Virus record (IMG/VR): IMGVR_UViG_2531839440_000002
Length of the DNA stretch: 27,296 nucleotides
Reading direction: 5' to 3' (one strand)
Source of the DNA: a virus
Lineage: Duplodnaviria; Heunggongvirae; Uroviricota; Caudoviricetes
Below, piece by piece: positions 1 through 23,603 of the stretch. The notes under the pieces were generated by a model. It did no database searches, was not told the origin of the DNA, and saw only the letters and a program-made list of their open reading frames with translations. Position 1 is the stretch's first letter. Each line of letters opens with the position of its first letter. A program made the translations under genes and the position numbers.

Positions 1-1284
1 TTACTTCTTCGCCTCTGCAACCACTTTGCTACCCACGCCGCGATTATTGTATTCCCACATGCGGTTGTAGTTAGTGTCATTCAGATTGCGCTGTATTTCG
101 TCGCTATCGTCAACGCTGCCGGTATTACCCGCAAATGGACGATTGGAAATCACCGCATCGCCCCACGGTTTAACCGTGTTAAAACCTTCGTTGATGGCGC
201 TATCACGGATCACCACCTGACCGTTGGTATTGGCATCAACATCCAGCGAGCGGCCCAGTTGTGCCACGCCATCACCGGAAGCATTGAAACGGCTGTTTAC
301 GGCGAGGAAACCGTAATAGATGTTGGACAGCGTAGCCGGTGCAAACACATACGCTTCTTGCTGAGTACGTGAGTTCACCACGCGGAATTCGGTGTTATCG
401 AACACCACTGCGCCGCGACCAGAAACGATATCCACATCCCCTTCAATATAGCTGTTGGTCACCAGCGTACGCGGCTGACGGTTGGTTTCCAGACGGTTCT
501 GCACACCGCTGTTGGTGACAAAGAAGGTGTTCTGACGACCGAGAATGTTAACGTTGTTAATCTGTACCTGGTCACCATCAGTACGCAGTGCCACCGCCGG
601 ATGGTTACCTGCATCTACGCTATCGCCCAGCGTGTTTTCGATGGTCAGATTTTGCAGTTGCAGGCCATTGTTTTGTGACCAGAAGACCGCAGAGCAGAGA
701 ACACCGATACTGTCGCTGCGTTTGCTCTGGCAGCTATCGTACATATACCACGCTGGTTTACCTGGCATATATTTGCCGCGCGGGTTGACGTCGTGACGCC
801 AGTCGGTAGGGCTCATGCCACCATCAAGGGAAAGCCCAATCTTCACATCAATCGGTTTTTCACCTGTACCGTACAGAGTAATTCCACCCGGAGCGGCAGG
901 GACATATACCGTTCCCTGATACTCACCAGGCATCACGGCAATATACTGGCGCTTGTTGGTACGCTTGATAATTGCCGCATCTACCGCCGCCTGAATCGTG
1001 GTATGCGTTACACCTTGAGTGCCCGCCGGGCCGACAACAAATTCAGGTTGCGCAGGCAGGGTAATCGGGGAAGGATTCCACGCTGCAGCACCTGGTGTCA
1101 GGGATGCAAAATAGTGTTGAGCATCGAAATTCTGCGCTTCTTTTGCCGACAGAATCGGGCGAGAAGAGGTACCAGGCGCGGTTTGATCAGAAGGACGTTG
1201 ATCGGGCGGGGTTGAGCTACAGGCGGTCAGCGTCACGCCAAAAGCCAATGCCAGCGCCAGACGGGAAACTGAAAATGTGTTCAC
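1..1284 (-). CDS. ybhC: YbhC-type outer-membrane lipoprotein (pectinesterase-fold family); host gene flanking attB-lambda
   Basis: 427-aa ORF, GTG start at 1284, N-terminal signal peptide with lipobox LTAC, stop at window position 1-3; matches recalled E. coli YbhC length and N-terminus. Confidence 0.85.
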   Translation of the reverse strand: MNTFSVSRLALALAFGVTLTACSSTPPDQRPSDQTAPGTSSRPILSAKEAQNFDAQHYFASLTPGAAAWNPSPITLPAQPEFVVGPAGTQGVTHTTIQAAVDAAIIKRTNKRQYIAVMPGEYQGTVYVPAAPGGITLYGTGEKPIDVKIGLSLDGGMSPTDWRHDVNPRGKYMPGKPAWYMYDSCQSKRSDSIGVLCSAVFWSQNNGLQLQNLTIENTLGDSVDAGNHPAVALRTDGDQVQINNVNILGRQNTFFVTNSGVQNRLETNRQPRTLVTNSYIEGDVDIVSGRGAVVFDNTEFRVVNSRTQQEAYVFAPATLSNIYYGFLAVNSRFNASGDGVAQLGRSLDVDANTNGQVVIRDSAINEGFNTVKPWGDAVISNRPFAGNTGSVDDSDEIQRNLNDTNYNRMWEYNNRGVGSKVVAEAKK

Positions 1285-1320
1285 AGGTTGCTCCGGGCTA
1301 TGAAATAGAAAAATGAATCC

Positions 1321-1420
1321 GTTGAAGCCTGCTTTTTTATACTAAGTTGGCATTATAAAAAAGCATTGCTTATCAATTTGTTGCAACGAACAGGTCACTA
1401 TCAGTCAAAATAAAATCATT
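1321..1420. other. attL-type prophage junction: bacterial B arm, 15-bp lambda core GCTTTTTTATACTAA (1331-1345), phage P' arm
   Basis: Core read directly; downstream sequence GTTGGCATTATAAAAAAGCATTGCTTATCAATTTGTTGCAACGAACAGGTCACTATCAGTCAAAATAAAATCATTATTTG matches recalled lambda attP P' arm; upstream TGAAGCCT matches recalled attB side. Confidence 0.8.
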
Positions 1421-2489
1421 ATTTGATTTCAATTTTGTCCCACTCCCTGCCTCTGTCATCACGATACTGTGATGCCATGGTGTCCGACTTATGCCCGAGA
1501 AGATGTTGAGCAAACTTATCGCTTATCTGCTTCTCATAGAGTCTTGCAGACAAACTGCGCAACTCGTGAAAGGTAGGCGGATCCCCTTCGAAGGAAAGAC
1601 CTGATGCTTTTCGTGCGCGCATAAAATACCTTGATACTGTGCCGGATGAAAGCGGTTCACGACGAGTAGATGCAATTATGGTTTCTCCGCCAAGAATCTC
1701 TTTGCATTTATCAAGTGTTTCCTTCATTGATATCCCGAGAGCATCAACATGCAATGTTGTTGGGATGGCAATTTTTACGCCTGTTTTGCTTTGCTCGACA
1801 TAAAGATATCCATCTACGATATCAGACCACTTCATTTCGCATAAATCACCAACTCGTTGCCCGGTAACAACAGCCAGTTCCATTGCAAGTCTGAGCCAAC
1901 ATGGTGATGATTCTGCTGCTTGATAAATTTTCAGGTATTCGTCAGCCGTAAGTCTTGATCTCCTTACCTCTGATTTTGCTGCGCGAGTGGCAGCGACAGG
2001 GTTTGTTGTTATATGGCCTTCAGCTATTGCCTCTCGGAATGCATCGCTCAGTGTTGATCTGATTAACTTGGCTGACGCCGCCTTGCCCTCGTCTATGTAT
2101 CCATTGAGCATTGCCGCAATTTCTTTTGTGGTGATGTCTTCAAGTGGAGCATCAGGCAGACCCCTCCTTATTGCTTTAATTTTGCTCATGTAATTTATGA
2201 GTGTCTTCTGCTTGATTCCTCTGCTGGCCAGGATTTTTTCGTAGCGATCAAGCCATGAATGTAACGTAACGGAATTATCACTGTTGATTCTCGCTGTCAG
2301 AGGCTTGTGTTTGTGTCCTGAAAATAACTCAATGTTGGCCTGTATGGCTTCAGTGATTGCGATTCGCCTGTCTCTGCCTAATCCAAACTCTTTACCCGTC
2401 CTTGGGTCCCTGTAGCAGTAATATCCATTGTTTCTTATATAAAGGTTAGGGGGTAAATCCCGGCGCTCATGACTTCGCCTTCTTCCCAT
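1419..2489 (-). CDS. int: Lambda-type integrase (tyrosine recombinase)
   Basis: 356-aa ORF beginning MGRRRSHERRDLPPNLYIRNNGYYCYRDPRTGKEFGLGRDRR, recalled as lambda Int; ATG at 2487-2489; sits next to attL. Confidence 0.95.
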   Translation of the reverse strand: MGRRRSHERRDLPPNLYIRNNGYYCYRDPRTGKEFGLGRDRRIAITEAIQANIELFSGHKHKPLTARINSDNSVTLHSWLDRYEKILASRGIKQKTLINYMSKIKAIRRGLPDAPLEDITTKEIAAMLNGYIDEGKAASAKLIRSTLSDAFREAIAEGHITTNPVAATRAAKSEVRRSRLTADEYLKIYQAAESSPCWLRLAMELAVVTGQRVGDLCEMKWSDIVDGYLYVEQSKTGVKIAIPTTLHVDALGISMKETLDKCKEILGGETIIASTRREPLSSGTVSRYFMRARKASGLSFEGDPPTFHELRSLSARLYEKQISDKFAQHLLGHKSDTMASQYRDDRGREWDKIEIK

Positions 2490-2685
2490 TTCTGATCCTC
2501 TTCAAAAGGCTACCTGTTACTGGTCGATTTAAGTCAACCTTTACCGCTGATTCGTGGAACAGATACTCTCTTCCATCCTTAACCGGAGGAGGGAATATCC
2601 TGCACTCGCGTACCCATCGACGAACTGTTTCAAGGCTTCTTGGGCGTCGCTGGCGTGCGTTCCACTCCTGAAGTGTCAAGTACAT
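2467..2685 (-). CDS. xis: Lambda-type excisionase
   Basis: 72-aa ORF MYLTLQEWNARQRRPRSLETVRRWVRECRIFPPP..., overlapping int 5' end as in lambda. Confidence 0.9.
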   Translation of the reverse strand: MYLTLQEWNARQRRPRSLETVRRWVRECRIFPPPVKDGREYLFHESAVKVDLNRPVTGSLLKRIRNGKKAKS

Positions 2686-2724
2686 CGCAAAGTCTCCGCA
2701 ATTACACGCAAGAAAAAACCGCCA

Positions 2725-2892
2725 TCAGGCGGCTTGGTGTTCTTTCAGTTCTTCAATTCGAATATTGGTTACGTCTGCATGTGCTATCTGCGCCCACAGC
2801 ATCCAGTGGTCATAGCAGTCGCTGATGTTCTCGGCTTCGATAACTCTGTTGAATGGTTCTCCATTCCATTCACCTGTGACTCGGAAGTGCAT
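2725..2892 (-). CDS. Small hypothetical protein (55 aa) directly upstream of xis, as in lambda
   Basis: ATG at 2890-2892, stop 2725-2727; translation MHFRVTGEWNGEPFNRVIEAENISDCYDHWMLWAQIAHADVTNIRIEELKEHQAA; below the 60-aa cutoff of the ORF track; position matches a small lambda orf (recall). Confidence 0.45.
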   Translation of the reverse strand: MHFRVTGEWNGEPFNRVIEAENISDCYDHWMLWAQIAHADVTNIRIEELKEHQAA

Positions 2893-3134
2893 TTATCATC
2901 TCCATAAAACAAAACCCGCCGTAGCGAGTTCAGATAAAAGAAATCCTCGTCAGTGCGAGGATGCTGTTCATTGCTGCTATACACTTTTTTGCTCTCAACG
3001 TAAGCGGTAGCCCATTCTGTTGGGTTGGTGCAGTTGCTTTTAGGAAATGCTATTTACCCCTTAAATGTCGGCTGAAAGAGCTAAAATCCATGCAAAAAAT
3101 TTACGCAATTTTGTGTATTATTGTGCAGTAAGTA

Positions 3135-3737
3135 ATGAGCTATTTTCTGCGCAAAAAATGGATGGTAAATTTGTCCGGGTCAGGAAAAATTTTATGGGCG
3201 CTAAACATGAAAAAAGATTCGTATCCTTATTTGATTTGCATGACAGTTTCAGGGCTGATCTTTATTTTCCTTTTCTTCTGGTGGCGGGCAGATATCTACA
3301 GGGTCACGTTTCTTAATCAGAGTATATCCCACTATTACATTCTGTTTAGCATGGGAATAGCTTTTCTGTTATCTCTGTTTTGGGTTAAGAAGGGGATAGT
3401 AAAACAAAGAGGCTGGAAGAGTCTGTCAGCATACCTTAAGGTTTATGCAGGGATGTGCATATTTGCTGGATTTTTTCTGATTATACCCCTTACGACACTA
3501 ACTTATTTTTTGCCTGGAGAGACATCGTCTTATGTTGCACCGTATCGGTATACTTCCGGTAGTTCAAAAAGTTGTTCTGGAGCTGAGGTGGATGACCCCG
3601 ATCTACATGAGAATATTCGCATTTGCTATCCGTATGGCAATTATGAGTACGATAATATTATCTATGTTGAAAAGAAAATTAATATATTAGGTGCGGTAGT
3701 GACATATGCACAGACCGCGCGTGATGATACTGAATGA
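3135..3737 (+). CDS. Hypothetical multi-pass membrane protein in an AT-rich substitution (moron-like)
   Basis: 200-aa ORF with at least three hydrophobic helices (LIFIFLFFWW, YYILFSMGIAFLLSLFWV, CIFAGFFLIIPLTTLTYFL); AT-rich; true start uncertain (3135, 3162 or 3207). Confidence 0.4.
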   Translation: MSYFLRKKWMVNLSGSGKILWALNMKKDSYPYLICMTVSGLIFIFLFFWWRADIYRVTFLNQSISHYYILFSMGIAFLLSLFWVKKGIVKQRGWKSLSAYLKVYAGMCIFAGFFLIIPLTTLTYFLPGETSSYVAPYRYTSGSSKSCSGAEVDDPDLHENIRICYPYGNYEYDNIIYVEKKINILGAVVTYAQTARDDTE

Positions 3738-3947
3738 TATAGTATATAGCGGGCAAGTTTTAGTTAATTTATCGAGGTAATATAATTTACCTCGACTCGT
3801 TTGTTCTGGTATTAATATTTCGCTTTACGACCGATTTTTATCTGATGATATCATGCGGTTTTCATATACTGACTTACTGTCTTTTCTCCGTTAGCGATTT
3901 TCTCCTGCTCAGCGATGATTTTATCTTTGGCTTCTAGTTAATTTCGC

Positions 3948-4169
3948 TCACTTCGAACCTCTCTGTTTACTGATAAGCTCCAGATCCTCCTGGCAACTTG
4001 CACAAGTCCGACAACCCTGAACGACCAGGCGTCTTCGTTCATCTATCGGATCGCCACACTCACAACAATGAGTGGCAGATATAGCCTGGTGGTTCAGGCG
4101 GCGCATTTTTATTGCTGTGTTGCGCTGTAATTCTTCAATTTCTGATGCTGAATCAATGATGTCTGCCAT
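3948..4169 (-). CDS. TraR/DksA-family C4 zinc-finger protein (lambda Orf73-type RNA polymerase-binding regulator)
   Basis: 73-aa ORF with CxxC-(17 aa)-CxxC motif (CCECGDPIDERRRLVVQGCRTCASC), typical of TraR/DksA C-terminal zinc finger. Confidence 0.75.
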   Translation of the reverse strand: MADIIDSASEIEELQRNTAIKMRRLNHQAISATHCCECGDPIDERRRLVVQGCRTCASCQEDLELISKQRGSK

Positions 4170-4267
4170 CTTCCATTAATCCCTGAATTGTTGGTTAATA
4201 CGCTTGAGGGTGAATGCGAATAATAAAAAAGGAGCCTGTAGCTCCCTGATGATTTTGCTTTTCATGT

Positions 4268-4579
4268 TCATCGTTCCTTAAAGACGCCGTTTAACATGCC
4301 GATTGCCAGGCTTAAATGAGTCGGTGTGAATCCCATCAGCGTTACCGTTTCGCGGTGCTTCTTCAGTACGCTACGGCAAATGTCATCGACGTTTTTATCC
4401 GGAAACTGCTGTCTGGCTTTTTTGATTTCAGAATTAGCCTGACGGGCAATGCTGCGAAGGGCGTTTTCCTGCTGAGGTGTCATTGAACAAGTCCCATGTC
4501 GGCAAGCATAAGCACACAGAATATGAAGCCCGCTGCCAGAAAAATGCATTCCGTGGTTGTCATACCTGGTCTCTCTCAT
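4268..4579 (-). CDS. Hypothetical protein, lambda early-left small orf (orf61-like position)
   Basis: 103-aa ORF; 20-nt overlap with the following 63-aa ORF reproduces the recalled orf61/orf63 overlap in lambda; real start may be internal. Confidence 0.45.
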   Translation of the reverse strand: MRETRYDNHGMHFSGSGLHILCAYACRHGTCSMTPQQENALRSIARQANSEIKKARQQFPDKNVDDICRSVLKKHRETVTLMGFTPTHLSLAIGMLNGVFKER

Positions 4580-4751
4580 CTGCTTCTGCTTTCGCCACCA
4601 TCATTTCCAGCTTTTGTGAAAGGGATGCGGCTAACGTATGAAATTCTTCGTCTGTTTCTACTGGTATTGGCACAAACCTGACTCCAATTTGAGCGAGGCT
4701 ATGTGCCATCTCGATACTCGTTCTTAACTCAACGGGAGATGCTTTGTGCAT
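4560..4751 (-). CDS. Hypothetical protein, lambda orf63-like (63 aa)
   Basis: 192-nt ORF, same size and overlap geometry as recalled lambda orf63. Confidence 0.5.
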   Translation of the reverse strand: MHKASPVELRTSIEMAHSLAQIGVRFVPIPVETDEEFHTLAASLSQKLEMMVAKAEADERDQV

Positions 4752-4999
4752 ACAGCTCCCCGTTTATTATTTATCTCCTCAGCCAGCCGCTGTGCTTTCA
4801 GGGGATTTCGGATAACAGAAAGGCCGGGAAATACCCAGCCTCGCTTCGTAACGGAGTAGACGAAAGTGATCGTGCCTATAAGTGGCTTCACAACAAAGCA
4901 AAGGTATCCCCTGAACATGTCGGCAGCATTGTTACGGCTACTGGTGGAGTTGTGAAGGCGTACCAGATTCGCCCGGATCTTCCGAAGTTGTTTCCACAC
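4724..4999 (-). CDS. Hypothetical protein; C-terminal part resembles lambda orf60a, N-terminal part differs (possible deletion junction)
   Basis: C-terminal ...TFVYSVTKRGWVFPGLSVIRNPLKAQRLAEEINNKRGAVCTKHLPLS matches my recollection of lambda orf60a; in lambda exo follows, here it does not. Confidence 0.3.
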   Translation of the reverse strand: MWKQLRKIRANLVRLHNSTSSRNNAADMFRGYLCFVVKPLIGTITFVYSVTKRGWVFPGLSVIRNPLKAQRLAEEINNKRGAVCTKHLPLS

Positions 5000-5101
5000 A
5001 CCGAAAAGAACGCAGCTTAAATTTCCATTTCACGCTCTTTAACAATAAGCAATCAACTTAACAGACTGATTAACAGTCAATTCAAACTAAAGGAATCAAT
5101 T

Positions 5102-5641
5102 ATGCAACCAATTACATACCAACAGACTAGCGGATTTACCCCGACTGCGGTGATAAATCGTTCTCAAACAAAACAGGCGCCAGGCCACGAAAAAATCCGT
5201 GATGCCGTTCGCGCCTGGTCGGCTGCAGATAATCAGGATGTTGTTGCCGCACTCATTGTGAATGAGTATCGGGAGCTGGGCGGCGGCACCATCGATTTCC
5301 CTGATGATGTCAGCCGTGCACGCCAGAAGTTGTTCCGCTTCCTCGATAACAAATTCGATTCTGAAAAATACCGAAATAACGTGCGTGAACTGACCCCGGC
5401 AATTCTGGCGGTACTACCGCTGGAATATCGCGGCCACCTGGTTGAGCAGGATAGCTTCATGGCTCGGCTGGTTGAAATGGAAAAGGAACTCAGTGAGGCA
5501 AAGCAGGCGGTCATTCTCAACGCACCACGCCACCAGAAACTGAAGGAAATGAGTGAAGGTATTGTGTCGATGTTTCGCGTGGACCCGGATCTGGCTGGTC
5601 CATTAATGGCGATGGTTACCACCATGCTGGGGGCAATATGA
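5102..5641 (+). CDS. Hypothetical protein (179 aa) directly upstream of O, in the position cII occupies in lambda
   Basis: ATG at 5102 with AAGGA about 8 nt upstream; stop overlaps an ATG at 5638 (ATGA); no motif recognised. Confidence 0.55.
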   Translation: MQPITYQQTSGFTPTAVINRSQTKQAPGHEKIRDAVRAWSAADNQDVVAALIVNEYRELGGGTIDFPDDVSRARQKLFRFLDNKFDSEKYRNNVRELTPAILAVLPLEYRGHLVEQDSFMARLVEMEKELSEAKQAVILNAPRHQKLKEMSEGIVSMFRVDPDLAGPLMAMVTTMLGAI

Positions 5642-5727
5642 CAGGTTCAGAAATGGCGAAAGTCGGTCTGCGGGAACAGAACCGACTTTCAGGTGCAAAT
5701 CGTAACGCACTCATTACGGGAGGAATT

Positions 5728-6657
5728 ATGGCAAACACTGCTGAGATATTCAATTTTCCAGTGCCGGATGTGGCACAAAAGGAGCCGCGCGTGGCAGATC
5801 TCGATGATGGTTATACGCGCATTGCAAATGAGTTGCTGGAAGTTGTAATGCTGGCCGGATTAACACAGCACCAGCTTCTGGTCTTCCTGGCTGTCATGCG
5901 CAAAACATATGGCTTTAATAAAAAACTGGATTGGGTGAGCAACGAGCAACTTTCCGAGTTAACCGGGATATTGCCGCACAAGTGTTCTGCTGCAAAAAGT
6001 GTTCTGGTAAAGCGTGGGATTTTAATTCAGAGCGGGCGGAATATCGGCATCAATAATGTGGTCAGTGAATGGTCAACATTACCCGAATCAGGTAAGAAAA
6101 ATAAAGTTTACCTGAAAGAGGTAAATTTACCTGAATCAGGTAAGAAAAGTTTACCTAAATCAGGTAAACGCCTTTACCCGAATCAGGTAAACACAAAAGA
6201 CAAACTAACAAAAGACAATATAAAACCTTTTTCGTCAGAGAATTCTGGCGAATCCTCTGACCAGCCAGAAAACGATCTTCCTGTGGTGAAACCGGATGCT
6301 GCAATTCAGAGCGGCAGCAAGTGGGGGACAGCAGAAGACCTGACCGCCGCAGAGTGGATGTTTGACATGGTGAAGACCATCGCGCCATCAGCCAGAAAAC
6401 CGAATTTTGCAGGGTGGGCTAACGATATCCGCCTGATGCGTGAACGTGACGGACGTAACCACCGCGACATGTGTGTACTGTTCCGCTGGGCATGCCAGGA
6501 CAACTTCTGGTCCGGTAACGTGCTGAGTCCGGCCAAACTCCGCGACAAGTGGACCCAGCTCGAAATCAACCGAAACAAGCAACAGGCTGGCGTGACAGCC
6601 GGCAAACCAAAACTCGACCTGACGAACACTGACTGGATTTACGGGGTGGAGCTATGA
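5728..6657 (+). CDS. O: Replication initiator protein O (lambdoid, non-lambda allele) containing ori iterons
   Basis: N-terminus MANTAEIFNF...RVADLDDGYTRIAN aligns with recalled lambda O (MTNTAKILNF...NVADLDDGYARLSN); GGGAGGA SD before ATG 5728; alternative upstream start at 5638; internal iterons and AT-rich tract. Confidence 0.85.
   Translation: MANTAEIFNFPVPDVAQKEPRVADLDDGYTRIANELLEVVMLAGLTQHQLLVFLAVMRKTYGFNKKLDWVSNEQLSELTGILPHKCSAAKSVLVKRGILIQSGRNIGINNVVSEWSTLPESGKKNKVYLKEVNLPESGKKSLPKSGKRLYPNQVNTKDKLTKDNIKPFSSENSGESSDQPENDLPVVKPDAAIQSGSKWGTAEDLTAAEWMFDMVKTIAPSARKPNFAGWANDIRLMRERDGRNHRDMCVLFRWACQDNFWSGNVLSPAKLRDKWTQLEINRNKQQAGVTAGKPKLDLTNTDWIYGVEL
6079..6190. repeat. Origin of replication: five dyad-symmetric iterons (consensus TTACCYGAATCAGGTAA) followed by an AT-rich unwinding tract
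   Basis: Copies at 6079-6095, 6109-6125, 6127-6143, 6151-6167, 6174-6190; each half TTACCTGA is the reverse complement of TCAGGTAA; AT-rich tract 6191-6235; encodes the ESGKK repeats in O. Confidence 0.75.
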
Positions 6658-7355
6658 AAAACATCGCCGCACAGATGGTTAACTTTGACCGTGAGCAGAT
6701 GCGCCGGATCGCCAACAACATGCCGGAACAGTACGACGAAAAGCCGCAGGTACAACAGGTAGCGCAGATCATCAATGGTGTGTTCAGCCAGTTACTGGCA
6801 ACTTTCCCGGCGAGCCTGGCTAACCGGGACCAGAACGAACTGAACGAAATCCGCCGCCAGTGGGTGCTGGCTTTCCGGGAAAACGGGATCACCACAATGG
6901 AACAGGTTAACGCAGGAATGCGCGTAGCCCGTCGGCAGAATCGACCATTCCTGCCATCACCCGGGCAGTTTGTTGCCTGGTGCCGGGAAGAAGCATCCGT
7001 TAACGCCGGGCTGCCAAACGTCAGCGAGCTGGTTGATATGGTCTATGAGTATTGTCGGAAGCGTGGCCTGTATCCGGATGCAGAGTCTTATCCGTGGAAA
7101 TCAAACGCGCACTACTGGCTGGTTACCAACCTGTACCAGAACATGCGGGCCAATGCGCTTACTGATGCGGAATTACGGCGCAAGGCTGCCGATGGACTGA
7201 CTTGTATGACCGCGCGAATTAACCGTGGTGAGGCGATACCTGAACCAGTAAAACAACTTCCTGTCATGGGCGGTAGACCTCTAAATCGTGCACAGGCTCT
7301 GGCGAAGATCGCAGAAATCAAAGCGAAGTTCGGACTGAAAGGAGCAACTGTATGA
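6654..7355 (+). CDS. P: Replication protein P (DnaB helicase loader), lambda-type
   Basis: 233-aa ORF MKNIAAQMVNFDREQMRRIANNMPEQYDEKPQVQQVAQIINGVF..., recalled as near-identical to lambda P; start overlaps O stop. Confidence 0.9.
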   Translation: MKNIAAQMVNFDREQMRRIANNMPEQYDEKPQVQQVAQIINGVFSQLLATFPASLANRDQNELNEIRRQWVLAFRENGITTMEQVNAGMRVARRQNRPFLPSPGQFVAWCREEASVNAGLPNVSELVDMVYEYCRKRGLYPDAESYPWKSNAHYWLVTNLYQNMRANALTDAELRRKAADGLTCMTARINRGEAIPEPVKQLPVMGGRPLNRAQALAKIAEIKAKFGLKGATV

Positions 7356-7633
7356 CGGGCAAAGAGGTAATTATTCATTATCTGGAGACGCACAAGAGCT
7401 TCTGTGCGCAGGACGTTGCTGCGGCAACAGGTGTGACAGTAACCTGCATAAATCAGGCAGCAGCTAAAATGGCGCGGGCAGGAATCCTGGTCATTGATGG
7501 TAAGGTCTGGCGAACGGTGTATTACCGGTTCGCTACCAGAGAAGAACGGGAAGGAAAGGTGAGCACGAACCTGATTTTTAAGGAGTGCCGCCAGAGTGCC
7601 GCGATGAAGCGGGTGTTGGCGGTATATGGGTGA
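7352..7633 (+). CDS. ren: Ren-like protein (possibly truncated at C-terminus)
   Basis: 93-aa ORF starting MTGKEVIIHYLETHKSFCAQD with ATGA overlap to P, as for lambda ren; sequence becomes AT-rich immediately after its stop. Confidence 0.65.
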   Translation: MTGKEVIIHYLETHKSFCAQDVAAATGVTVTCINQAAAKMARAGILVIDGKVWRTVYYRFATREEREGKVSTNLIFKECRQSAAMKRVLAVYG

Positions 7634-7927
7634 TTAGTTATTACTTGATTTGATGGTTATCTCGAAAACATCCAATCAAATTTAATGGTTTGCTTTGTGC
7701 GGGGAACTATAACAATGTTTCTAGCTTGGTGCTGTATGAATTAGTGAATTAGTAGGGAATATATCCACACATTGATTAACACAAAAATATTTTAGATATT
7801 AAATGTAACTCAAAGGATGAGTAATAATGGTTGTGTAGCGTATAACAGGATGCTGAGGTAGTATTAAACAATGAATAAATCTGATTGACAAGCACCAGAT
7901 AATACTGCGGGTCAATCATTAGACATG

Positions 7928-7962
7928 AACGCCACTAGTTACTGAGAGTAACTAATGGCGTT
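7928..7962. repeat. Near-perfect 16-bp inverted repeat (hairpin) 3' of the HD-domain gene
   Basis: AACGCCACTAGTTACT / gag / AGTAACTAATGGCGTT with one mismatch; no clear U-tract on either strand. Confidence 0.4.
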
Positions 7963-8003
7963 GTGTTTATAGTTAAGATGTTTTTTAAAACATCAGGGGG
8001 GCT

Positions 8004-8885
8004 CTACTTGTCTTTTTTAATATGATCAATCTCATCATTAAGACATTTATCTATTTTTTTTATTAACACATTAATTTCTTCGGTGTTTTGGAGTTGAGTT
8101 GTCTTAGAAACAAAAACTCGAATAAAGAATTTAACATAGTGATAGGGTTGAAGTACATCGTTATACTTACATAAATCATTTATTGTATACTTGCCGCCTG
8201 TTTCTTTTTTTATTATTTTAGCTTGACTTGTATCGATATCTTTAAAGTTATCTTCAATCTGAAAATCAAGAACCCATTCATCTTCTTTTAAATTATCCTC
8301 AATGATTTTGTTGATTTTCTTAGATATATTTTGTTTATATTTTTTGTATCTGTTGTCGGAAATGTTAACATTAGAAAACGTGTGTTTTTTTTCATATATT
8401 TTTTTCCAAACATTTCTATCAACAATATCTTGAATTATAGCTTGAGAATTTTTATCTAATGTGTTTTTAAGAGTGTTTTCTAAAAACGTTTTGTCTGGGT
8501 TTTCACGATAAAAGTGTTTGATGGACTCAATGAGAGTGTTTTTAGATTTTAAAGAGACAACATCATCAGTTTTTTTTCTAGAACACGCTTTGTTAAGCAT
8601 CGCAGATAGTGCACGATTGGTCTTATGAAAATAAACTTGACTATAAAGCCCACTTCTTGCATTGGCAAATTCTAGTATTGAATCCATACCACTTTCTTTA
8701 TATGCCAGGTAAACACTATTTTCAACTTTCACAGGAATAAATGACATTAATAATCGTCCATAATCATAAATCCCATATTTAACGCCGGAGAAGTAGCTAT
8801 CTCTAAGTAGGTAGTCCATTCTGTCCGCATCTATAGGTGAAGATGATATGATTGAACCTAATAAAGGATATACATTTACTCCCTC
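8004..8885 (-). pseudogene. HD-domain phosphohydrolase (dGTPase/SAMHD1-like), C-terminal fragment displaced by IS1
   Basis: Frame open from 8885 to stop at 8004; contains DADRMDYLLRDSYFSG motif; in frame with the N-terminal fragment once IS1 and one duplication copy are removed. Confidence 0.75.
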
Positions 8886-8940
8886 GGTGATGCTGCCAAC
8901 TTACTGATTTAGTGTATGATGGTGTTTTTGAGGTGCTCCA

Positions 8941-9216
8941 GTGGCTTCTGTTTCTATCAGCTGTCCCTCCTGTTCAGCTACTGACGGGGTGGTGCGTAAC
9001 GGCAAAAGCACTGCCGGACATCAGCGCTATCTCTGCTCTCACTGCCGTAAAACATGGCAACTGCAGTTCACTTACACCGCTTCTCAACCCGGTACGCACC
9101 AGAAAATCATTGATATGGCCATGAATGGCGTTGGATGCCGGGCAACAGCCCGCATTATGGGCGTTGGCCTCAACACGATTTTACGTCACTTAAAAAACTC
9201 AGGCCGCAGTCGGTAA
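8941..9216 (+). CDS. insA: IS1 InsA
   Basis: 91-aa [43 protein letters not shown]..., GTG start. Confidence 0.9.
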
Positions 9217-9638
9217 CCTCGCGCATACAGCCGGGCAGTGACGTCATCGTCTGCGCGGAAATGGACGAACAGTGGGGCTATGTCGGGGCTAAATCGCGCC
9301 AGCGCTGGCTGTTTTACGCGTATGACAGGCTCCGGAAGACGGTTGTTGCGCACGTATTCGGTGAACGCACTATGGCGACGCTGGGGCGTCTTATGAGCCT
9401 GCTGTCACCCTTTGACGTGGTGATATGGATGACGGATGGCTGGCCGCTGTATGAATCCCGCCTGAAGGGAAAGCTGCACGTAATCAGCAAGCGATATACG
9501 CAGCGAATTGAGCGGCATAACCTGAATCTGAGGCAGCACCTGGCACGGCTGGGACGGAAGTCGCTGTCGTTCTCAAAATCGGTGGAGCTGCATGACAAAG
9601 TCATCGGGCATTATCTGAACATAAAACACTATCAATAA
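9135..9638 (+). CDS. insB: IS1 InsB reading frame (transposase made as InsAB' by frameshifting)
   Basis: 167-aa ORF ...[44 protein letters not shown]...; overlaps insA. Confidence 0.85.
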
Positions 9639-9653
9639 GTTGGAGTCATTACC

Positions 9654-10328
9654 TACTCCCTCAATGTTATTTTTAAAATCATATCTTTTATCAACAATTT
9701 TTATAATGCTTTCTGGATTAATAGCCGCTATGTTTTCTTTATAGACATCGTCGTCATTTGATTTATCTTGGGCTTCATTTTTTAATTCTTCAATAATTTC
9801 TTTAATAAAAATACATGATACTTGTTCGTGGGTTAACTTGTCATTATCACTTAAAGATATAATCTTATCGTATTGTTTATTTCCTTCAGTTTTGCATTTT
9901 TCTTTGAAATCTTTTACGGATATTGCAAAACTATCGAATTGGTGGGCAAGTGGGCCATGCCCAACATCGTGTAACAATGCTGCAATACGTAACTCCTGTA
10001 TAAGACTTGAAGGCATTTTTTTTATATCTAAATATAGATCAATGCCCATATTTTTTCGATTGTAAATTAGTGCATTTAAATCAATATTTTTTAATATTTC
10101 ATACGATAAATGCATTACACCGACAGAGTGTTCAAAGCGAGAGTGCATTGCAGAAGGAAATACTTTATATAGAAACGTGTTCTGCCTGATATCTCGTAGT
10201 CGTTGGAATAAAGGATGGTCAATTATCTTTTTTTCTAGCTTAGTTATTCGAATCACTCCATGTATGGGATCTAAAAACTTCCCCAGAAGTAAGTCTTCAA
10301 AGTTCTCAAGTTTGTTTTTGTTTGTCAT
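9654..10328 (-). pseudogene. HD-domain phosphohydrolase (dGTPase/SAMHD1-like), N-terminal fragment interrupted by IS1
   Basis: ATG at 10326-10328; 225 codons up to the IS1 boundary; motifs HSRFEHSVGVMHLS and LLHDVGHGPLAH; the listed ORF 9573-10328 reads 26 codons into IS1 before stopping. Confidence 0.75.
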
Positions 10329-10389
10329 GAGGCTTTCCTTTTGCTGTAGTTATAATACGAAATTTAAATAGTAATGATGTTTATAGTTT

Positions 10390-10418
10390 CAATGTGTTAT
10401 CTAATGGTTAACACATTG
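10390..10418. promoter_or_regulatory. Dyad-symmetric element CAATGTGTTA-N9-TAACACATTG upstream of the HD-domain gene; candidate operator
   Basis: Perfect 10-bp inverted repeat arms read directly, about 60-90 bp 5' of the HD gene start. Confidence 0.3.
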
Positions 10419-10687
10419 TGATGTAGCATATCAATATGGATTCATATGTTCAATTGGTCTGTGGAGTTTAGTTATGAATAAGATTGATTCTGGTAATACT
10501 TTGTAGTTTAAGCTAGAGGCGGGATTCGTGATGTTCAAATCAGTATGTAATGGAGGTTGTGCATTAGTACTTGCTGCTGGAAATTAAAAATAAAGTTGCA
10601 AGTAATCGACGTTTTCCGAGAGGAGGATGTAAGCATCGCTGACCAAAAAGTATCAACGATGCCTGTTTTGTTTTAACTACAAATTAA

Positions 10688-12190
10688 TTAAATTGCATCT
10701 GCAAACTCTGGGATTTTTCGCTCAAGTATGATTGATGAGTTGCTGTTGTCGCTTTTTTTATTTTCATGATTACGAATAGCCAATGACTCATTAAAGTCTT
10801 TTGCGACTGCTGTCTCAATAAATTCAATTTCTGAATCAGAGTGTTTTTTAACAGCTTCTTTGATCTCATCCAGAGTAACATAGAAAAACTCTTTTCTACG
10901 ATTTACAAGATTGACTCTCTTTTTATCGAAGACATCATGTAGTTCTTTTTCTAATGATGGAGCGTCCTCCGAATAAATCATGGCATGCACATCAAAAATA
11001 AAAGGAACAGATGCATCACCAAGCTCATTTACACGGTCTTGTGGATCAAGACGTCGTGTCATGCCTATTTTATAAACATTCTCCCCAAAAGAACCTATGT
11101 TCGAAATAATATAAACATGACCTTGTTTGGTTTGTTGTGCCATGGATAATGCTCTTTGATGCTTTGATTCAGCCTGCGACAAACTCTGTTCTAGTTCGGC
11201 AATGCGATTTTCGAGGCGCTGCTTCATGTCACCAGTAACTTTTTCCATTTCCTTTCTTGCAGCTTCAATTGCTTTTTTATAACGGCGCTCTTCTGCCTCT
11301 GCGTCTTGCATGGCCTTTTCTATTTCTCGTTGTGCACGCTCCTCCTCTCTCATTTGTGCCCTTATTTCTGCCTGTTCTTCTTTTTCTTTCTGTTTTTGCT
11401 CACGATATTCATGGGTAAGCCACAACTCCTCAAGTTTTTTATTAAGGTATTTAGTATTTATATATATGTGATTTTGCTCGTTTAGTTTATTTATGGCCTC
11501 AAATGCCTTTGTGATGCGTTCTTCCATTTTAGTGATATTTTTCCACGTGCAATTACTAATTGCAGCATCACATTCATTATTAAATGCTCTAGTAGTTAGC
11601 CTAATATTTCTGTCTGTCATTTTTTTACCCTCTGCTCGAGAGCCTTCAACAGTCCATTGGGTTGTGCAATATACTGCACCAGAGTGGGTTTTATCCCGCA
11701 GCATTAATTTCTGTTCATCCCTGATGGATTTTATTTTGTTTTTAAATTGCTCTGAATCTTCAAAATTAAAATGAGGTTCGTAAAATCCTAGTTCGGCTAG
11801 TTCAACATCTTCTGAATAAATAGAAATTTGCTTTACTAACTTATCATATATTTCTTTCTTCTCTTTATAAGTTCTTCTTAGTTCTTGGATTTGTTTATTG
11901 ATACCATCCATTTTTTCAATGGTGTTTGTTAGTTCATTATTGGCATTTTCTTTTACTTTTTGGGACTCTTCTTTTATAATGGAGCATTCTTGCTCTGTTT
12001 TCTCAATAAGCTTCTTACATTCCTCTTCCATATTAAAATAATCTGCAAAGCGAGATTTGTATTCTTCATTTTTTTGATTGCTATCACTTAATTCTAATTG
12101 TATTTTTTTGATGCGTTTGATTGCAGCTATATATAGAACAAGAACAACCAATAAAAATATGATTGCAAGTAATAGTGGAGTTTGAGTCAT
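10688..12190 (-). CDS. Membrane-anchored coiled-coil protein with DUF4041-like central region and C-terminal T5orf172 (GIY-YIG-like) domain; candidate defence protein
   Basis: 500 aa; N-terminal helix PLLLAIIFLLVVLVLYIAAI; long K/E-rich heptad segments; C-terminal GHVYIISNIGSFGENVYKIGMTRRLDPQDRVNELGDASVPFIFDVHAMIY...; AT-rich. Confidence 0.8.
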   Translation of the reverse strand: MTQTPLLLAIIFLLVVLVLYIAAIKRIKKIQLELSDSNQKNEEYKSRFADYFNMEEECKKLIEKTEQECSIIKEESQKVKENANNELTNTIEKMDGINKQIQELRRTYKEKKEIYDKLVKQISIYSEDVELAELGFYEPHFNFEDSEQFKNKIKSIRDEQKLMLRDKTHSGAVYCTTQWTVEGSRAEGKKMTDRNIRLTTRAFNNECDAAISNCTWKNITKMEERITKAFEAINKLNEQNHIYINTKYLNKKLEELWLTHEYREQKQKEKEEQAEIRAQMREEERAQREIEKAMQDAEAEERRYKKAIEAARKEMEKVTGDMKQRLENRIAELEQSLSQAESKHQRALSMAQQTKQGHVYIISNIGSFGENVYKIGMTRRLDPQDRVNELGDASVPFIFDVHAMIYSEDAPSLEKELHDVFDKKRVNLVNRRKEFFYVTLDEIKEAVKKHSDSEIEFIETAVAKDFNESLAIRNHENKKSDNSNSSIILERKIPEFADAI

Positions 12191-12616
12191 TCGTGCTATT
12201 CCTTACGGACAATTTAAGACGTTTTGTATTAAATCCTGTTCAATGTGTATGCGGGTGATTGCTACCGCTTACAATCTTCATAATTATCAGTTAGATAGAC
12301 TCGCTAGTAAATAATTTCATTTTTTGCAATATTCTTATTGAATATTTCAATTTATGAAATGAGCTCTTTATCCTTTCAAGGCGAAAGGTTTCTTCTTCGG
12401 AAATATTTGCTCTCGTGTGACGTATAAAGGCCTTTGATTTTTAAAAAACAGTAGGAAATAATATAGTTACAGTCGGCCTGAACACCCGGCGGTGGGGTTG
12501 CGCTAAACGGGGACGTTTATGCGCACATACAATCTAAACTCTCTTCTCCCTTCACAGATGCAGAAATGCACCTGCGATTTTTTGCATCCAACGTTTGACC
12601 TCTGCGGAGGTGAAGC

Positions 12617-13072
12617 ATGAACCTACCACAAGATGGCATCAAATTACATCGTGGCAACTTCACCGCTATCGGCCAGCAGATCCAGCCTTATCTGGAGGAC
12701 GGAAAATGCTTTCGCATGGTGCTTAAACCGTGGCGTGAGAAACGCAGTCTTTCCCAGAGTGCACTCAGCCACATGTGGTACAGCGAAATCAGTGAATACC
12801 TTATCAGCAGGGGTAAAACGTTCGCCACTCCAGCTTGGGTAAAAGATGCTCTCAAACACACATATCTCGGTTATGAAACCAAAGACCTGGTTGATGTCGT
12901 AACCGGTGATATCACCACTATCCAGTCGTTACGCCATACCTCCGACCTTGATACCGGAGAGATGTATGTCTTCCTGTGTAAGGTTGAAGCCTGGGCGATG
13001 AATATTGGCTGCCACCTGACTATTCCGCAGAGCTGCGAGTTCCAGCTGCTGCGTGATAAGCAGGAGGCGTAA
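12617..13072 (+). CDS. ybcN: YbcN-like lambdoid nin-region protein (151 aa)
   Basis: [58 protein letters not shown]... recalled as DLP12 YbcN family; GGAGG SD upstream. Confidence 0.65.
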
Positions 13073-13242
13073 TGGCTACACCGCTTATTCGTGTCATGAA
13101 CGGACACATCTACAAAATACCAAATCGTCGTAAGCGTAGGCCTGAGCTGAAACCATCCGAAATACCAACACTGCTCGGATATACCGCCAGCCTGGTTGAT
13201 AAAAAATGGTTGCGACTGGCAGCAAGGAGGAATCATGGCTGA
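13072..13242 (+). CDS. ninE: NinE-like protein (56 aa)
   Basis: ATG overlaps previous stop (TAATG); [56 protein letters not shown]; below ORF-track cutoff. Confidence 0.6.
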   Translation: MATPLIRVMNGHIYKIPNRRKRRPELKPSEIPTLLGYTASLVDKKWLRLAARRNHG

Positions 13243-13525
13243 TTTGAGAAAAGCAGCGCGTGGTCGGGAATGCCAGGTAAGAATCCCTGGCGTATGTAAT
13301 GGCAATCCTGAAACGTCTGTACTGGCACATATCCGGCTGGCTGGATTGTGCGGTACCGGTATCAAACCGCCAGACCTGATTGCCACCATTGCATGTTCTG
13401 CCTGTCACGACGAGATCGACCGTCGCACGCATTTTGTTGACGCTGGATATGCAAAAGAATGCGCGCTGGAAGGTATGGCGAGAACGCAGGTTATCTGGCT
13501 GAAAGAGGGGGTAATTAAGGCGTGA
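13235..13525 (+). CDS. ybcO: YbcO-like Cys-rich putative nuclease (DUF1364 family)
   Basis: 96 aa from [42 protein letters not shown]...; CxxxxxxxC and CSACH motifs; sits before rusA as in DLP12-type prophages. Confidence 0.65.
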
Positions 13526-13884
13526 ATACCTACAATATCACATTACCCTGGCCGCCGAGCAATAATCGCTATTACCGCCATAATCGCGGGCGCACGCACA
13601 TCAGCGCAGAGGGGCAGGCATACCGCGAAAACGTCGCCCGAATCATTAAAAACGCAATGCTGGATATCGGCCTGGCTATGCCTGTGAAAATCCGCATTGA
13701 GTGTCACATGCCGGATCGCCGTCGCCGTGACCTGGATAATCTACAAAAGGCCGCTTTTGACGCACTCACCAAAGCAGGTTTCTGGTTGGATGATGCTCAG
13801 GTCGTTGATTACCGCGTTGTGAAGATGCCGGTTGTCAAAGGTGGAAAGCTGGAACTGACCATCACTGAACAGGGAGATGAATGA
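13522..13884 (+). CDS. rusA: RusA Holliday-junction resolvase
   Basis: 120-aa [45 protein letters not shown]...[10 protein letters not shown], recalled RusA sequence. Confidence 0.85.
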
Positions 13885-14021
13885 TGTTTGAGTTTTATAT
13901 GGCAGAACTTCTTCGCCACCGCTGGATGCGCCTGCGCTTATATCGTTTCCCCGGTTCTGTTTTGACCGATTACCGAATACTGAAGAATTACGCCAAAACA
14001 CTGACAGGAGCAGGAGTATGA
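13881..14021 (+). CDS. ylcG: YlcG-like small protein (46 aa)
   Basis: [46 protein letters not shown]; overlaps rusA stop; below ORF-track cutoff. Confidence 0.5.
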
Positions 14022-14106
14022 AGTCAGAGATAACAATCAACTAATACTGTTTTGTTGATTTTTGCTTGTAATTGGCGTTCTGGTCTGAGTTTTGTGGAGT
14101 AAGTTG

Positions 14107-14484
14107 ATGCGTGATATTCAGATGGTTCTTGAGCGTTGGGGAGCGTGGGCGGCTAATAATCATGAAGATGTGACCTGGTCGTCCATTGCCGCCGGTTTTA
14201 AGGGATTAATTCCTTCAAAAGTAAAATCTCGCCCACAATGTTGTGACGATGACGCGATGATCATTTGCGGGTGCATGGCCCGTCTGAAAAAGAACAACAG
14301 CGATTTGCATGATTTATTGGTGGACTATTATGTCGGCGGCATGACTTTTATGGCGCTTGCACGTAAGCATGGGCGATCTGATTGTTGGGTTGGCAGGATG
14401 CTCCAGAAAGCTGAGGGCGTAGTGGAGGGTATGCTGATGGTGTTGGATCTCCGATTGGAGATGGATGCTGATTGTTCGAAATAA
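14107..14484 (+). CDS. Late-gene antiterminator Q (phage 82 / DLP12 QuuD-type)
   Basis: ATG at 14107 preceded by GGAG; [36 protein letters not shown]...; the ORF-track start at 14092 is a TTG. Confidence 0.75.
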
Positions 14485-14584
14485 TTAAAGGAAAAGTTGC
14501 TGTCTGATTCTCATTAGTCTAACATTTTAAATGTTGGAATCGCAACGTAGTTATTATCATATAACAGCTTGTTTCCTGATTTAG

Positions 14585-14611
14585 CCAGCCTCCCCAAAGG
14601 CTGGTTTTTTT
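14585..14611 (+). terminator. Rho-independent terminator about 100 nt after Q (tR'-like)
   Basis: Stem CCAGCCT / AGGCTGG, loop CCCCAA, followed by a run of seven T on the + strand. Confidence 0.5.
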
Positions 14612-14639
14612 CTAATAAGTATTATTTCGGGTAGGGATT

Positions 14640-15111: not shown

Positions 15112-15141
15112 GTAAGCGTCAACGGAGCACCGTATTGACGC

Positions 15142-16754: not shown

Positions 16755-16784
16755 GGCCGTTTTTATAATCCGGCCCGGCGTTTT

Positions 16785-17566: not shown

Positions 17567-17651
17567 CAATAGAACTCCGTCTAATTTAGAAGGAGCTCTA
17601 ATTTAGTCTGCAAGGAGCAGGTGTTACAGACGGCATTGGCTTTACGCTTAC

Positions 17652-23601: not shown

Positions 23602-23603
23602 CC

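What the first reader, a model, noticed from the sequence alone, without database searches (positions are those of the whole stretch)
1321..5100. Lambda-type attL/int/xis arm joined to a prophage lacking immunity and recombination genes
attL, int, xis and the 55-aa orf match lambda, but between xis (2685) and O (5728) there are only about 3 kb with no exo, bet, gam, kil, cIII, N, rex, cI, cro or cII. An orf60a-like gene with a divergent N-terminus (4724-4999) and the non-coding stretch 5000-5100 look like a deletion junction. The element cannot maintain lysogenic control or excise and replicate normally.
Basis: partly seen in the sequence, partly recalled or inferred. Interest (0 to 1): 0.5.

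Follow-up and report, generated by a model that had tools for sequence, protein, structure and literature searches.

The report
Defective lambda-like prophage, control region deleted
This is an ordinary decayed lambda-like virus remnant in an E. coli chromosome: one clean 3.5-kb deletion removed its repressor, both early promoters and its recombination genes.

Summary
The window holds E. coli ybhC, a lambda-type attL (core 1331-1345), and int and xis that are 99% identical to lambda's. It has no exo, bet, gam, kil or cI.

A sibling prophage at the same chromosomal site in E. coli Evo1 is 99.5-99.9% identical and shows what happened. A single 3,545-bp deletion has its junction at 4876-4878, a 3-bp CTA microhomology with no IS element. 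It runs from 28 nt inside the orf60a/DUF1317 gene to about 89 nt inside a YdaS-type cro.

Three details were wrong:
- 5000-5100 is native sequence, not a junction.
- The last 46 codons of cro survive.
- An intact cII analogue (YdaT family, 5102-5641) is present.

Lambda N, cIII and rex were not found in the intact sibling, so this lineage probably never had them. The replication module looks intact but has lost its promoter.

The same junction occurs at 100% identity in an independent public assembly, so it is not an artefact. It is absent from 5,426 complete E. coli genomes, so it is rare.

Elsewhere the prophage has lost all head and tail genes through a nu1-stf fusion and carries IS1, IS66-family and IS2 elements. 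This is textbook prophage decay and of low interest.

The parts
1..1284 (-). ybhC, the chromosomal gene flanking the lambda attachment site
   Evidence: 427-aa ORF. Annotated ybhC in all matching E. coli genomes.
1331..1345 (+). attL 15-bp core GCTTTTTTATACTAA. The P' arm follows, up to int.
   Evidence: Read directly. It is the only copy of the core in the window. Lambda homology starts at 1331 = lambda 27724.
1419..2489 (-). int, a lambda-type tyrosine integrase, intact
   Evidence: 353/356 identical to lambda Int. R212, K235, H308, R311, H333 and Y342 are all kept.
2467..2685 (-). xis, the excisionase, intact
   Evidence: 71/72 identical to lambda Xis.
2698..2711 (-). Lambda PI-type CII box TTGCGTGTAATTGC just upstream of xis
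   Evidence: The only exact TTGC-N6-TTGC in the window. No lambda-type cII gene is present.
2725..2892 (-). 55-aa ORF conserved in lambda, function unknown
   Evidence: PHROG 676, E 5.5e-40, full length. It lies inside the lambda-homologous block.
2963..3935 (.). Non-lambda substitution in place of lambda ea8.5/ea22. It includes a 200-aa ORF (3135-3737, + strand) that phage 434 records annotate as a putative membrane protein.
   Evidence: No lambda match here. The region is collinear with phages mEp332 (99.1%) and 434. 38% G+C.
3948..4169 (-). TraR/DksA-type zinc-finger gene
   Evidence: Pfam PF01258, E 1.6e-8. PHROG 54.
4268..4483 (-). orf61-region hypothetical gene
   Evidence: PHROG 303 and 26061. 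Annotated as a 71-aa hypothetical protein in the sibling.
4560..4751 (-). orf63 / DUF1382 gene, intact
   Evidence: Pfam PF07131, E 3e-31. 60/63 identical to lambda orf63.
4724..4878 (-). 5'-truncated orf60a / DUF1317 gene. The first 28 nt are lost. The open frame continues to 4999 through antisense cro sequence.
   Evidence: DUF1317 profile positions 10-59 match residues 41-90 of the 91-aa ORF. The intact 60-aa gene is present in the sibling.
4876..4878 (.). Deletion junction: 3-bp microhomology CTA. 3,545 bp are missing relative to the intact sibling.
   Evidence: The two BLAST blocks, window 1-4878 = L001 501-5378 and window 4876-8885 = L001 8921-12930, overlap by 3 nt. The parental sequences were read, and the window.
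4879..5020 (+). 3' remnant of a YdaS-type cro: the last 46 of 76 codons plus the stop. The residues bearing the predicted helix-turn-helix are deleted.
   Evidence: Pfam YdaS profile 26-60 of 65, at 26.7 bits against a 30-bit cut-off. PHROG 35, E 1.7e-11. Identical to residues 31-76 of the sibling's Cro.
5021..5101 (.). Native cro-ydaT intergenic spacer, not a junction
   Evidence: Collinear with the sibling, and this stretch is base-for-base identical to L001 9066-9146.
5102..5641 (+). ydaT-family gene, the cII analogue, intact but cut off from PR
   Evidence: Pfam PF06254, E 3.5e-29. PHROG 163 'CII-like transcriptional activator', E 1.2e-65. Function in the family: PMC9986795.
5638..6657 (+). 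O replication initiator. The likely true start is 5728. Five ori iterons lie at 6074-6191.
   Evidence: Pfam PF04492 and PHROG 277, with the profile starting at residue 31. Iterons. Lambda homology resumes at 6191 = lambda 39119.
6654..7355 (+). P replication protein, intact
   Evidence: 227/233 identical to lambda P.
7352..7633 (+). ren-like gene
   Evidence: PHROG 142, E 1.3e-40. 82/93 identical to lambda Ren.

Best explanation
The interval is the early-left arm of a lambdoid prophage integrated at the E. coli lambda attachment site, next to ybhC. It has suffered one 3,545-bp illegitimate (microhomology-mediated) deletion.

The deletion runs from 28 nt inside the orf60a/DUF1317 gene to about 89 nt inside a YdaS-type cro. 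It removed:
- exo, bet, gam and kil;
- the roughly 590-bp region where PL and OL should lie;
- the S24-type CI repressor gene;
- the divergent PRM/PR-operator region;
- the DNA-binding N-terminus of Cro.

Shown: the breakpoints, the lost genes, and the intactness of attL, int, xis, ydaT, O, ori and P.

Inferred: the repressor and both of its target promoters went together, along with kil. That made the loss survivable, and the remnant is transcriptionally orphaned. It gives no immunity, cannot be induced by the SOS response, and has no PR-driven expression of ydaT, O and P. int and xis are left with only a lambda-type PI whose activator (lambda CII) this phage lineage lacks.

Three further lesions add to this: a second deletion fusing nu1 to stf, with loss of all head and tail genes; an IS1 in a moron gene; and IS66-family and IS2 insertions between Q and the lysis genes. 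Together they make the element a locked-in cryptic prophage. Its remaining value to the host is probably cargo, such as the intact PD-lambda-1/SNIPE defence gene.
For: -: window 1-4878 and 4876-8885 align at 99.5% and 99.9% to two blocks of the Evo1 prophage that lie 3,545 bp apart. They overlap by 3 nt.
- the junction and both parental sequences were read directly.
- the missing segment in the sibling encodes exonuclease, Bet, Gam, Kil, an S24 CI-like repressor and the start of a 76-aa Cro.
- half-genes sit on both sides of the junction (DUF1317 positions 10-59; Cro residues 31-76).
- the same junction, 100% identical over 14.3 kb, occurs in an independent assembly, GCA_039870605.1. That assembly lacks the IS1.
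- the sibling still has all head and tail genes.
- a nu1-stf fusion ORF lies at 25279-26712, with cosN at 25090-25101.
- PMC5700373 and PMC5700377 report that loss of the RacR repressor is lethal in Rac because the adjacent ydaS-ydaT operon is derepressed. This fits the idea that repressor loss is tolerated only together with promoter loss.
- PD-lambda-1, E 1.5e-198.
Against: - No expression data exist. The silence of ydaT, O and P, and the orphaning of PI, are inferred from gene order and from lambda and CP-933P biology.
- PL and PR of this phage type were not mapped. They are assumed to flank cI as in other lambdoid phages.
- Consensus promoter-like hits in 2600-5800 (8 found, 5.9 expected) neither support nor exclude new promoters at the junction.
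- Whether the remnant still excises is unknown.
- A selective benefit from the cargo genes is conjecture.
Confidence: 0.9

Rival explanations
1. This is a native mosaic joint. The phage type never carried recombination or immunity genes here, and the arrangement is a natural module boundary.
For: Lambdoid genomes are mosaics. The window itself switches between lambda-like and non-lambda blocks at 2962/2963, 3935/3936 and 6190/6191.
Against: Both flanks of the joint are half-genes: DUF1317 lacks its first 9-10 codons and cro its first 30. Prophages 99.5-99.9% identical at the same site carry the full interval. Natural module joints fall at gene boundaries, not inside two ORFs on opposite strands.
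Confidence: 0.02
2. This is an assembly or sequencing artefact, a collapsed or chimeric contig, rather than a real deletion.
For: None of 5,426 complete RefSeq E. coli genomes has the junction. It is also absent from the GTDB species representatives.
Against: The identical junction, with 100% identity over 8,885 + 5,455 flanking bases, is in an independent NCBI assembly that differs by lacking the IS1. The chimeric product is a RefSeq protein, WP_071597156.1, seen on 2 contigs. There is no repeat at the junction that could mislead an assembler; the shared sequence is only 3 bp.
Confidence: 0.02
3. The deletion was made by a transposable element (IS-adjacent deletion) or by homologous recombination between repeated prophage segments, not by microhomology-mediated illegitimate recombination.
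For: The prophage holds IS1, an IS66-family element and IS2. IS1 is known to generate adjacent deletions.
Against: There is no IS sequence or IS end at or near 4876-4878. The nearest IS1 is 4 kb away and is absent from the assembly that shares the junction. The parental sequences share only CTA at the break.
Confidence: 0.04
4. The remnant is not inert but a helper-dependent mobile element. It keeps att sites, int, xis, ori-O-P, Q, lysis genes and cos. A superinfecting lambdoid phage could therefore excise, replicate, package or recombine with it.
For: attL, int and xis are intact. attR is present in a near-identical assembly. The iterons and O/P are intact. An exact cosN lies 189 nt upstream of the nu1 start, as in lambda.
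Against: There is no repressor or any recognisable helper-sensing regulator. O and P lack a promoter, and lambda-type origins need transcription in cis (established lambda biology; not tested here). At about 28 kb the element is well below the lambda packaging minimum as a monomer. The decay pattern (IS insertions, a split moron gene) is that of a dying prophage.
Confidence: 0.05

Closest known systems
Bacteriophage lambda (J02459) int-xis arm and O/P/ren
   Same: - The attachment core is identical.
- Int is 353/356 and Xis 71/72 identical.
- orf63 and orf60a are homologous.
- P is 227/233 identical and Ren 82/93.
- DNA identity over the three shared blocks is 98.6%, 98.3% and 93.7%.
- The PI CII box is kept.
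   Different: - ea8.5 and ea22 are replaced by a 434/mEp332-type segment.
- The immunity region of this lineage is not lambda's. It has an S24 repressor, a YdaS-type Cro and YdaT in place of CII.
- No N, cIII or rex was recognisable, even in the intact sibling.
- The O N-terminus and the iterons differ from lambda's.
Intact sibling prophage at the lambda attachment site of E. coli Evo1 (NZ_CP101915.1) and six similar complete genomes
   Same: It sits at the same chromosomal site, has the same mosaic, and is 99.5-99.9% identical on both sides of the junction.
   Different: - The sibling keeps the 3,545-bp exo-to-cro segment and all head and tail genes.
- It lacks the IS1 in the HD-domain gene but has an IS1 in the PD-lambda-1/SNIPE gene.
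- It carries different cargo between Q and the lysis genes.
Rac / CP-933P-type cryptic prophages (RacR-YdaS-YdaT switch)
   Same: The cro and cII positions are occupied by YdaS- and YdaT-family genes. Both are cryptic lambdoid remnants that have lost most structural genes.
   Different: - Rac and CP-933P keep the repressor, which is essential in Rac because ydaS/ydaT expression is toxic (PMC5700373, PMC5700377). Here the repressor, PR and the ydaS 5' end are all gone.
- The CP-933P YdaT operator TTGATTN6AATCAA is not present in the cro-ydaT spacer.
E. coli K-12 cryptic prophages DLP12 and Qin (from my own knowledge)
   Same: They show decay by large internal deletions and IS insertions. A nu1 homologue (nohD/nohA) lies next to tail-fibre remnants. 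The identical 477-aa nu1-stf fusion protein of this window is found in Qin-like contexts in other E. coli drafts (L008-L010).
   Different: They sit at different attachment sites and have different integrases. The specific orf60a-cro deletion is particular to this lineage.

Membership tests
Lambdoid prophage integrated at the lambda attachment site | attL of BOP' structure: the bacterial arm next to ybhC, the 15-bp core, then lambda's P' arm | tested here: met
   Core at 1331-1345 with the P' arm sequence. Lambda homology begins exactly at the core.
Lambdoid prophage integrated at the lambda attachment site | Lambda-type tyrosine integrase and excisionase adjacent to attL | tested here: met
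   Int 353/356 identical with all six catalytic residues kept. Xis 71/72 identical.
Lambdoid prophage integrated at the lambda attachment site | A matching attR (POB') next to ybhB-bioA | tested here: met
   attR is outside the window. In L004 (99.98% identical over window 15281-27296) the core lies 2,046 bp beyond the window end, followed by B' and by ybhB and bioA. The P1 and P2 arm sites differ from lambda at 1-2 positions, and the core-proximal roughly 90 nt is more diverged.
Defective (cryptic) prophage | Loss of genes essential for lysogenic control and early transcription | tested here: met
   The 3,545-bp deletion removes cI, the cI-cro intergenic region, the cro 5' end and the region between kil and cI.
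Defective (cryptic) prophage | Loss of the genes needed to build virus particles | tested here: met
   A nu1-stf fusion ORF at 25279-26712 replaces terminase, portal, capsid and tail genes, all of which are present in the sibling.
Defective (cryptic) prophage | Failure to produce phage or to be induced | not testable with these tools
   Needs mitomycin C or UV induction and plaque or qPCR assays.
Lambda immunity type (lambda cI / cro / cII / N) | Homologues of lambda cro and cII flanking PR and PRE | tested here: not met
   The local alignments of the 105-aa and 179-aa ORFs to lambda Cro and CII score only 32 and 37, which is not significant. The Pfam families found are YdaS and YdaT instead.
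Rac/CP-933P-type YdaS-YdaT switch | A YdaT-family protein in the cII position | tested here: met
   PF06254 at 101.5 bits against a cut-off of 21.
Rac/CP-933P-type YdaS-YdaT switch | An intact repressor and an intact YdaS (Cro) with their promoter | tested here: not met
   Both are deleted. The YdaS remnant scores 26.7 bits, below the 30-bit cut-off, and lacks residues 1-30.
Rac/CP-933P-type YdaS-YdaT switch | The YdaT operator TTGATTN6AATCAA at the ydaS-ydaT boundary | tested here: not met
   No match with up to 2 mismatches in 4879-5101. The four matches elsewhere are at the chance level. The paper notes that the recognition helix varies within the family, so a different operator is likely.
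Phage satellite (cos-type PICI-like) | A compact island of about 10-15 kb with its own regulator responding to a helper phage, plus genes that redirect packaging | tested here: not met
   The element spans about 28 kb from attL to attR. Its gene content and near-identity to a full-length prophage show that it is a deletion derivative. No PICI-type regulator or capsid-redirection gene turned up among the proteins scanned. The window was not scanned exhaustively for them.

The most novel reading that the evidence does not exclude
The remnant may be a helper-exploiting or module-donating element rather than dead DNA. It keeps attL and attR, intact int and xis, an intact origin with O and P, Q, the lysis genes and an exact cos site. 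A superinfecting or co-resident lambdoid phage could therefore excise and package it as multimers, or rescue its modules by recombination. The co-deletion of the repressor with both early promoters could then be the step that made such a repressor-less hitch-hiker tolerable to the host.
Probability: 0.05. Interest if true: 0.45.

Novelty: new member of a known kind. Interest (0 to 1): 0.12.

Why it matters
It matters little beyond correct annotation. The region should be labelled a cryptic lambdoid prophage with a defined 3,545-bp deletion, not a lambda prophage.

It is a clean worked example of how a prophage can lose its repressor without killing the host. The repressor, both early promoters and kil went in one event, and the potentially toxic ydaT was left without a promoter.

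The chimeric ORFs at 4724-4999 and 4703-5020 should not be taken as real genes. The remnant still carries an intact PD-lambda-1/SNIPE anti-phage gene, which may explain why it is kept.

Tried and rejected
- I searched for the junction (301-bp query) in 5,426 complete RefSeq E. coli genomes. No place covered at least 80% of the query.
- An exact 33-mer across the junction found nothing in the GTDB species-representative genomes.
- An exact-protein look-up of the 91-aa GTG-start chimeric ORF found nothing. The 64-aa ATG-start version was found.
- The CP-933P YdaT operator is not at the cro-ydaT boundary.
- The promoter/terminator consensus scan of 2600-5800 gave promoter hits at the chance level. 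Terminator-like hits were above chance (11 found, 3.4 expected) but were not interpreted further.
- Rfam and tRNA scans found nothing in 1321-5100.
- I looked for a lambda-type N in the intact sibling. There is only an unassigned arginine-rich 78-aa ORF with no PHROG match.
- I rejected IS-mediated deletion, a native mosaic joint and an assembly artefact, for the reasons given under the rival explanations.
- I made no structure predictions or large protein-database searches, because every gene in the interval was identified by near-identity to known phages.

Full report
**What is in the window**

The first 1,284 bases encode ybhC on the minus strand. ybhC is the E. coli gene on one side of the lambda attachment site. 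At 1331-1345 lies the 15-bp lambda core GCTTTTTTATACTAA, with bacterial sequence to its left and lambda's P' arm to its right. This is an attL, and it is the only copy of the core in the window.

A BLAST against lambda 27300-41000 gives three homologous blocks:

| Window | Lambda | Identity |
|---|---|---|
| 1331-2962 | 27724-29355 | 98.6% |
| 3936-4878 | 30380-31323 | 98.3% |
| 6191-7629 | 39119-40557 | 93.7% |

Int is 353/356 identical to lambda Int and keeps R212, K235, H308, R311, H333 and Y342. Xis is 71/72 identical. The 55-aa ORF at 2725-2892 lies in the first block and matches PHROG 676 over its full length.

**The deletion**

The closest complete genomes carry a prophage at the same site that is 99.5-99.9% identical to the window on both sides of position 4878. 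These are E. coli Evo1 (NZ_CP101915.1) and six others. They have 3,545 extra bases in between.

- Window 1-4878 equals L001 501-5378.
- Window 4876-8885 equals L001 8921-12930.
- The two alignments overlap by three bases.

Reading the three sequences directly shows the break:

- Left parent: ...cgtgccTAC|gcgg...
- Right parent: ...gccgtcTAT|aagtgg...
- Window: ...cgtgccTATaagtgg...

The only shared sequence at the break is CTA. No IS sequence is present there. This is a simple illegitimate, microhomology-mediated deletion.

In the sibling, the missing segment encodes the following:

- the first 28 nt of the DUF1317 (lambda orf60a) gene;
- exonuclease, Bet, Gam and Kil;
- about 590 bp without an assigned gene;
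- an S24-peptidase CI-like repressor;
- the divergent cI-cro intergenic region;
- the first 30 codons of a 76-aa Cro.

**What the junction ORFs are**

The 91-aa minus-strand ORF at 4724-4999 is a chimera. Residues 41-90 match DUF1317 profile positions 10-59 of 60. Residues 1-40 are a read-through of antisense cro.

The 105-aa plus-strand ORF at 4703-5020 is the mirror image. Its last 46 residues are identical to residues 31-76 of the sibling's Cro. They match Pfam YdaS profile 26-60, below the cut-off, and PHROG 35.

However, the stretch 5000-5100 is native: 5000-5020 is the end of cro and 5021-5101 is the natural cro-ydaT spacer.

The gene at 5102-5641 is intact. It belongs to the YdaT family (Pfam E 3.5e-29; PHROG 163 'CII-like transcriptional activator', E 1.2e-65). 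In CP-933P, YdaT is the functional equivalent of lambda CII. It binds between ydaS and ydaT and activates a leftward PRE-type promoter (PMC9986795).

This lineage therefore has a Rac/CP-933P-like switch, not lambda's. The only candidate there is an unassigned arginine-rich 78-aa ORF between kil and cI.

The CP-933P operator sequence is absent from the spacer. That is expected, given the variable recognition helix in the family.

**What survives to the right**

- O is present.
- Five iterons lie at 6074-6191. Lambda homology resumes directly after them.
- P is 227/233 identical to lambda P.
- A ren-like gene follows.

**Is it real, and how common is it?**

The junction is absent from all 5,426 complete RefSeq E. 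coli genomes and from the GTDB representatives.

The 64-aa ATG-start version of the chimeric ORF is on record as WP_071597156.1, on two contigs. One of them is GCA_039870605.1 contig ABSMSI010000073.1. It is 100% identical to window 1-8885 and 9654-15108 and lacks only the IS1.

The deletion is therefore real and rare, and it predates the IS1 insertion at 8886-9653, which has the 9-bp target duplication TACTCCCTC.

**How it most likely works**

What is shown:
- The repressor gene, the region that must hold PRM, PR and the operators, the Cro DNA-binding half, the region where PL should lie, kil and the Red genes are all gone.
- attL, int, xis, ydaT, O, ori and P are intact.

What is inferred:
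- In the related Rac prophage, losing the repressor alone is lethal because ydaS and ydaT are derepressed (PMC5700373, PMC5700377). A deletion that takes the repressor together with both early promoters and kil is the kind that a cell can survive.
- Such a deletion leaves ydaT-O-P without a promoter, and the leftward genes without PL.
- int and xis retain the lambda PI CII box TTGCGTGTAATTGC at 2698-2711. No lambda-type CII exists in this lineage, so regulated Int and Xis synthesis is unlikely.

The claim that the element cannot excise is not demonstrated. An attR with the core and near-conserved P1 and P2 arm sites lies 2,046 bp past the window end in a 99.98%-identical assembly.

**Wider decay**

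The sibling has a full head and tail gene set. In the window, a single ORF (25279-26712) fuses the first 70-odd residues of Nu1 to a side-tail-fibre protein (Pfam Phage_Nu1 + Collar). An exact cosN lies 189 nt upstream of its start codon.

An IS66-family element and IS2 sit among cargo genes between Q and the lysis cassette. IS1 splits an HD-domain gene. The PD-lambda-1/SNIPE defence gene at 10688-12190 is intact.

**Verdict**

This is a well-defined but ordinary cryptic prophage. Several details needed correction. Nothing here departs from known prophage decay, so interest is low. The most novel reading the evidence does not exclude is a helper-mobilisable remnant with cos, ori and att sites, and that reading is unlikely.

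Noticed in passing
window 25090-26712: An exact lambda cosN (GGGCGGCGACCT, 25090-25101) is followed by a 477-aa ORF (25279-26712) that fuses the N-terminus of terminase small subunit Nu1 to a side-tail-fibre protein. This marks a second large deletion that removed all head and tail genes. The identical 477-aa protein also occurs in Qin/Rac-like prophage contexts in other E. coli drafts (L008-L010). That suggests the fusion has spread between prophage remnants by recombination.
   Followed up: partly
window 8886-9653: An IS1 (768 bp, 9-bp target duplication TACTCCCTC) splits a 515-aa HD-domain gene located between ren and the nin region. It is absent from the otherwise identical assembly L003, so it inserted after the immunity deletion. 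The HD-domain protein has no PADLOC match.
   Followed up: partly
window 10688-12190 (-): An intact 500-aa DUF4041/SNIPE + GIY-YIG (T5orf172) protein matches the PD-lambda-1 anti-phage defence model almost end to end (E 1.5e-198). In the sibling prophage of strain Evo1 this gene is the one hit by an IS1.
   Followed up: partly
window 2698-2711 (-): The lambda PI CII-binding box TTGCGTGTAATTGC is retained upstream of xis. Yet neither this prophage nor its intact sibling has a lambda-type cII; both have YdaT instead. It is unclear how int is activated during lysogenisation in this mosaic lineage.
   Followed up: no
L001 7415-7651 (-), the intact sibling; this region is deleted in the window: Between kil and the repressor gene the intact sibling has no recognisable N or cIII. 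There is only an unannotated 78-aa TTG-start ORF with an arginine-rich N-terminus (RLRGVRGVKRTRERR) and no PHROG match. It could be an N-like antiterminator or nothing at all.
   Followed up: partly
window 6074-6191: Five ori iterons (TTACCYGAATCAGGTAA type) lie inside O. Homology to lambda resumes at 6191 (lambda 39119), immediately after the position of lambda's fourth iteron. This is a textbook module joint separating origin specificity from the P-interacting half of O.
   Followed up: partly
window 14640-21277: The cargo region between Q and the lysis genes holds: a Blc lipocalin gene; an IS66-family element whose transposase reading frame is split (193-aa and 331-aa ORFs); a YbgA/DUF1722 gene; IS2; and an AraC-family regulator. 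Blc and the YbgA-type gene (annotated COG1683) are also carried at this position by viable lambda-like phages (Lambda_ev087 and others).
   Followed up: partly
window 27055-27253 (+): An Rfam IS009 hit (220.8 bits against a gathering score of 117) overlaps an 80-aa tail-fibre-assembly fragment ORF at the right end of the window.
   Followed up: no
window 5039-5076: The retained cro-ydaT spacer contains three direct TTAACA repeats (5039, 5058, 5070). It also has an AATCA...TGATT inverted pair. These are possible operator elements for this YdaT variant, and a possible PRE-type promoter region that would now point into the truncated orf60a.
   Followed up: no
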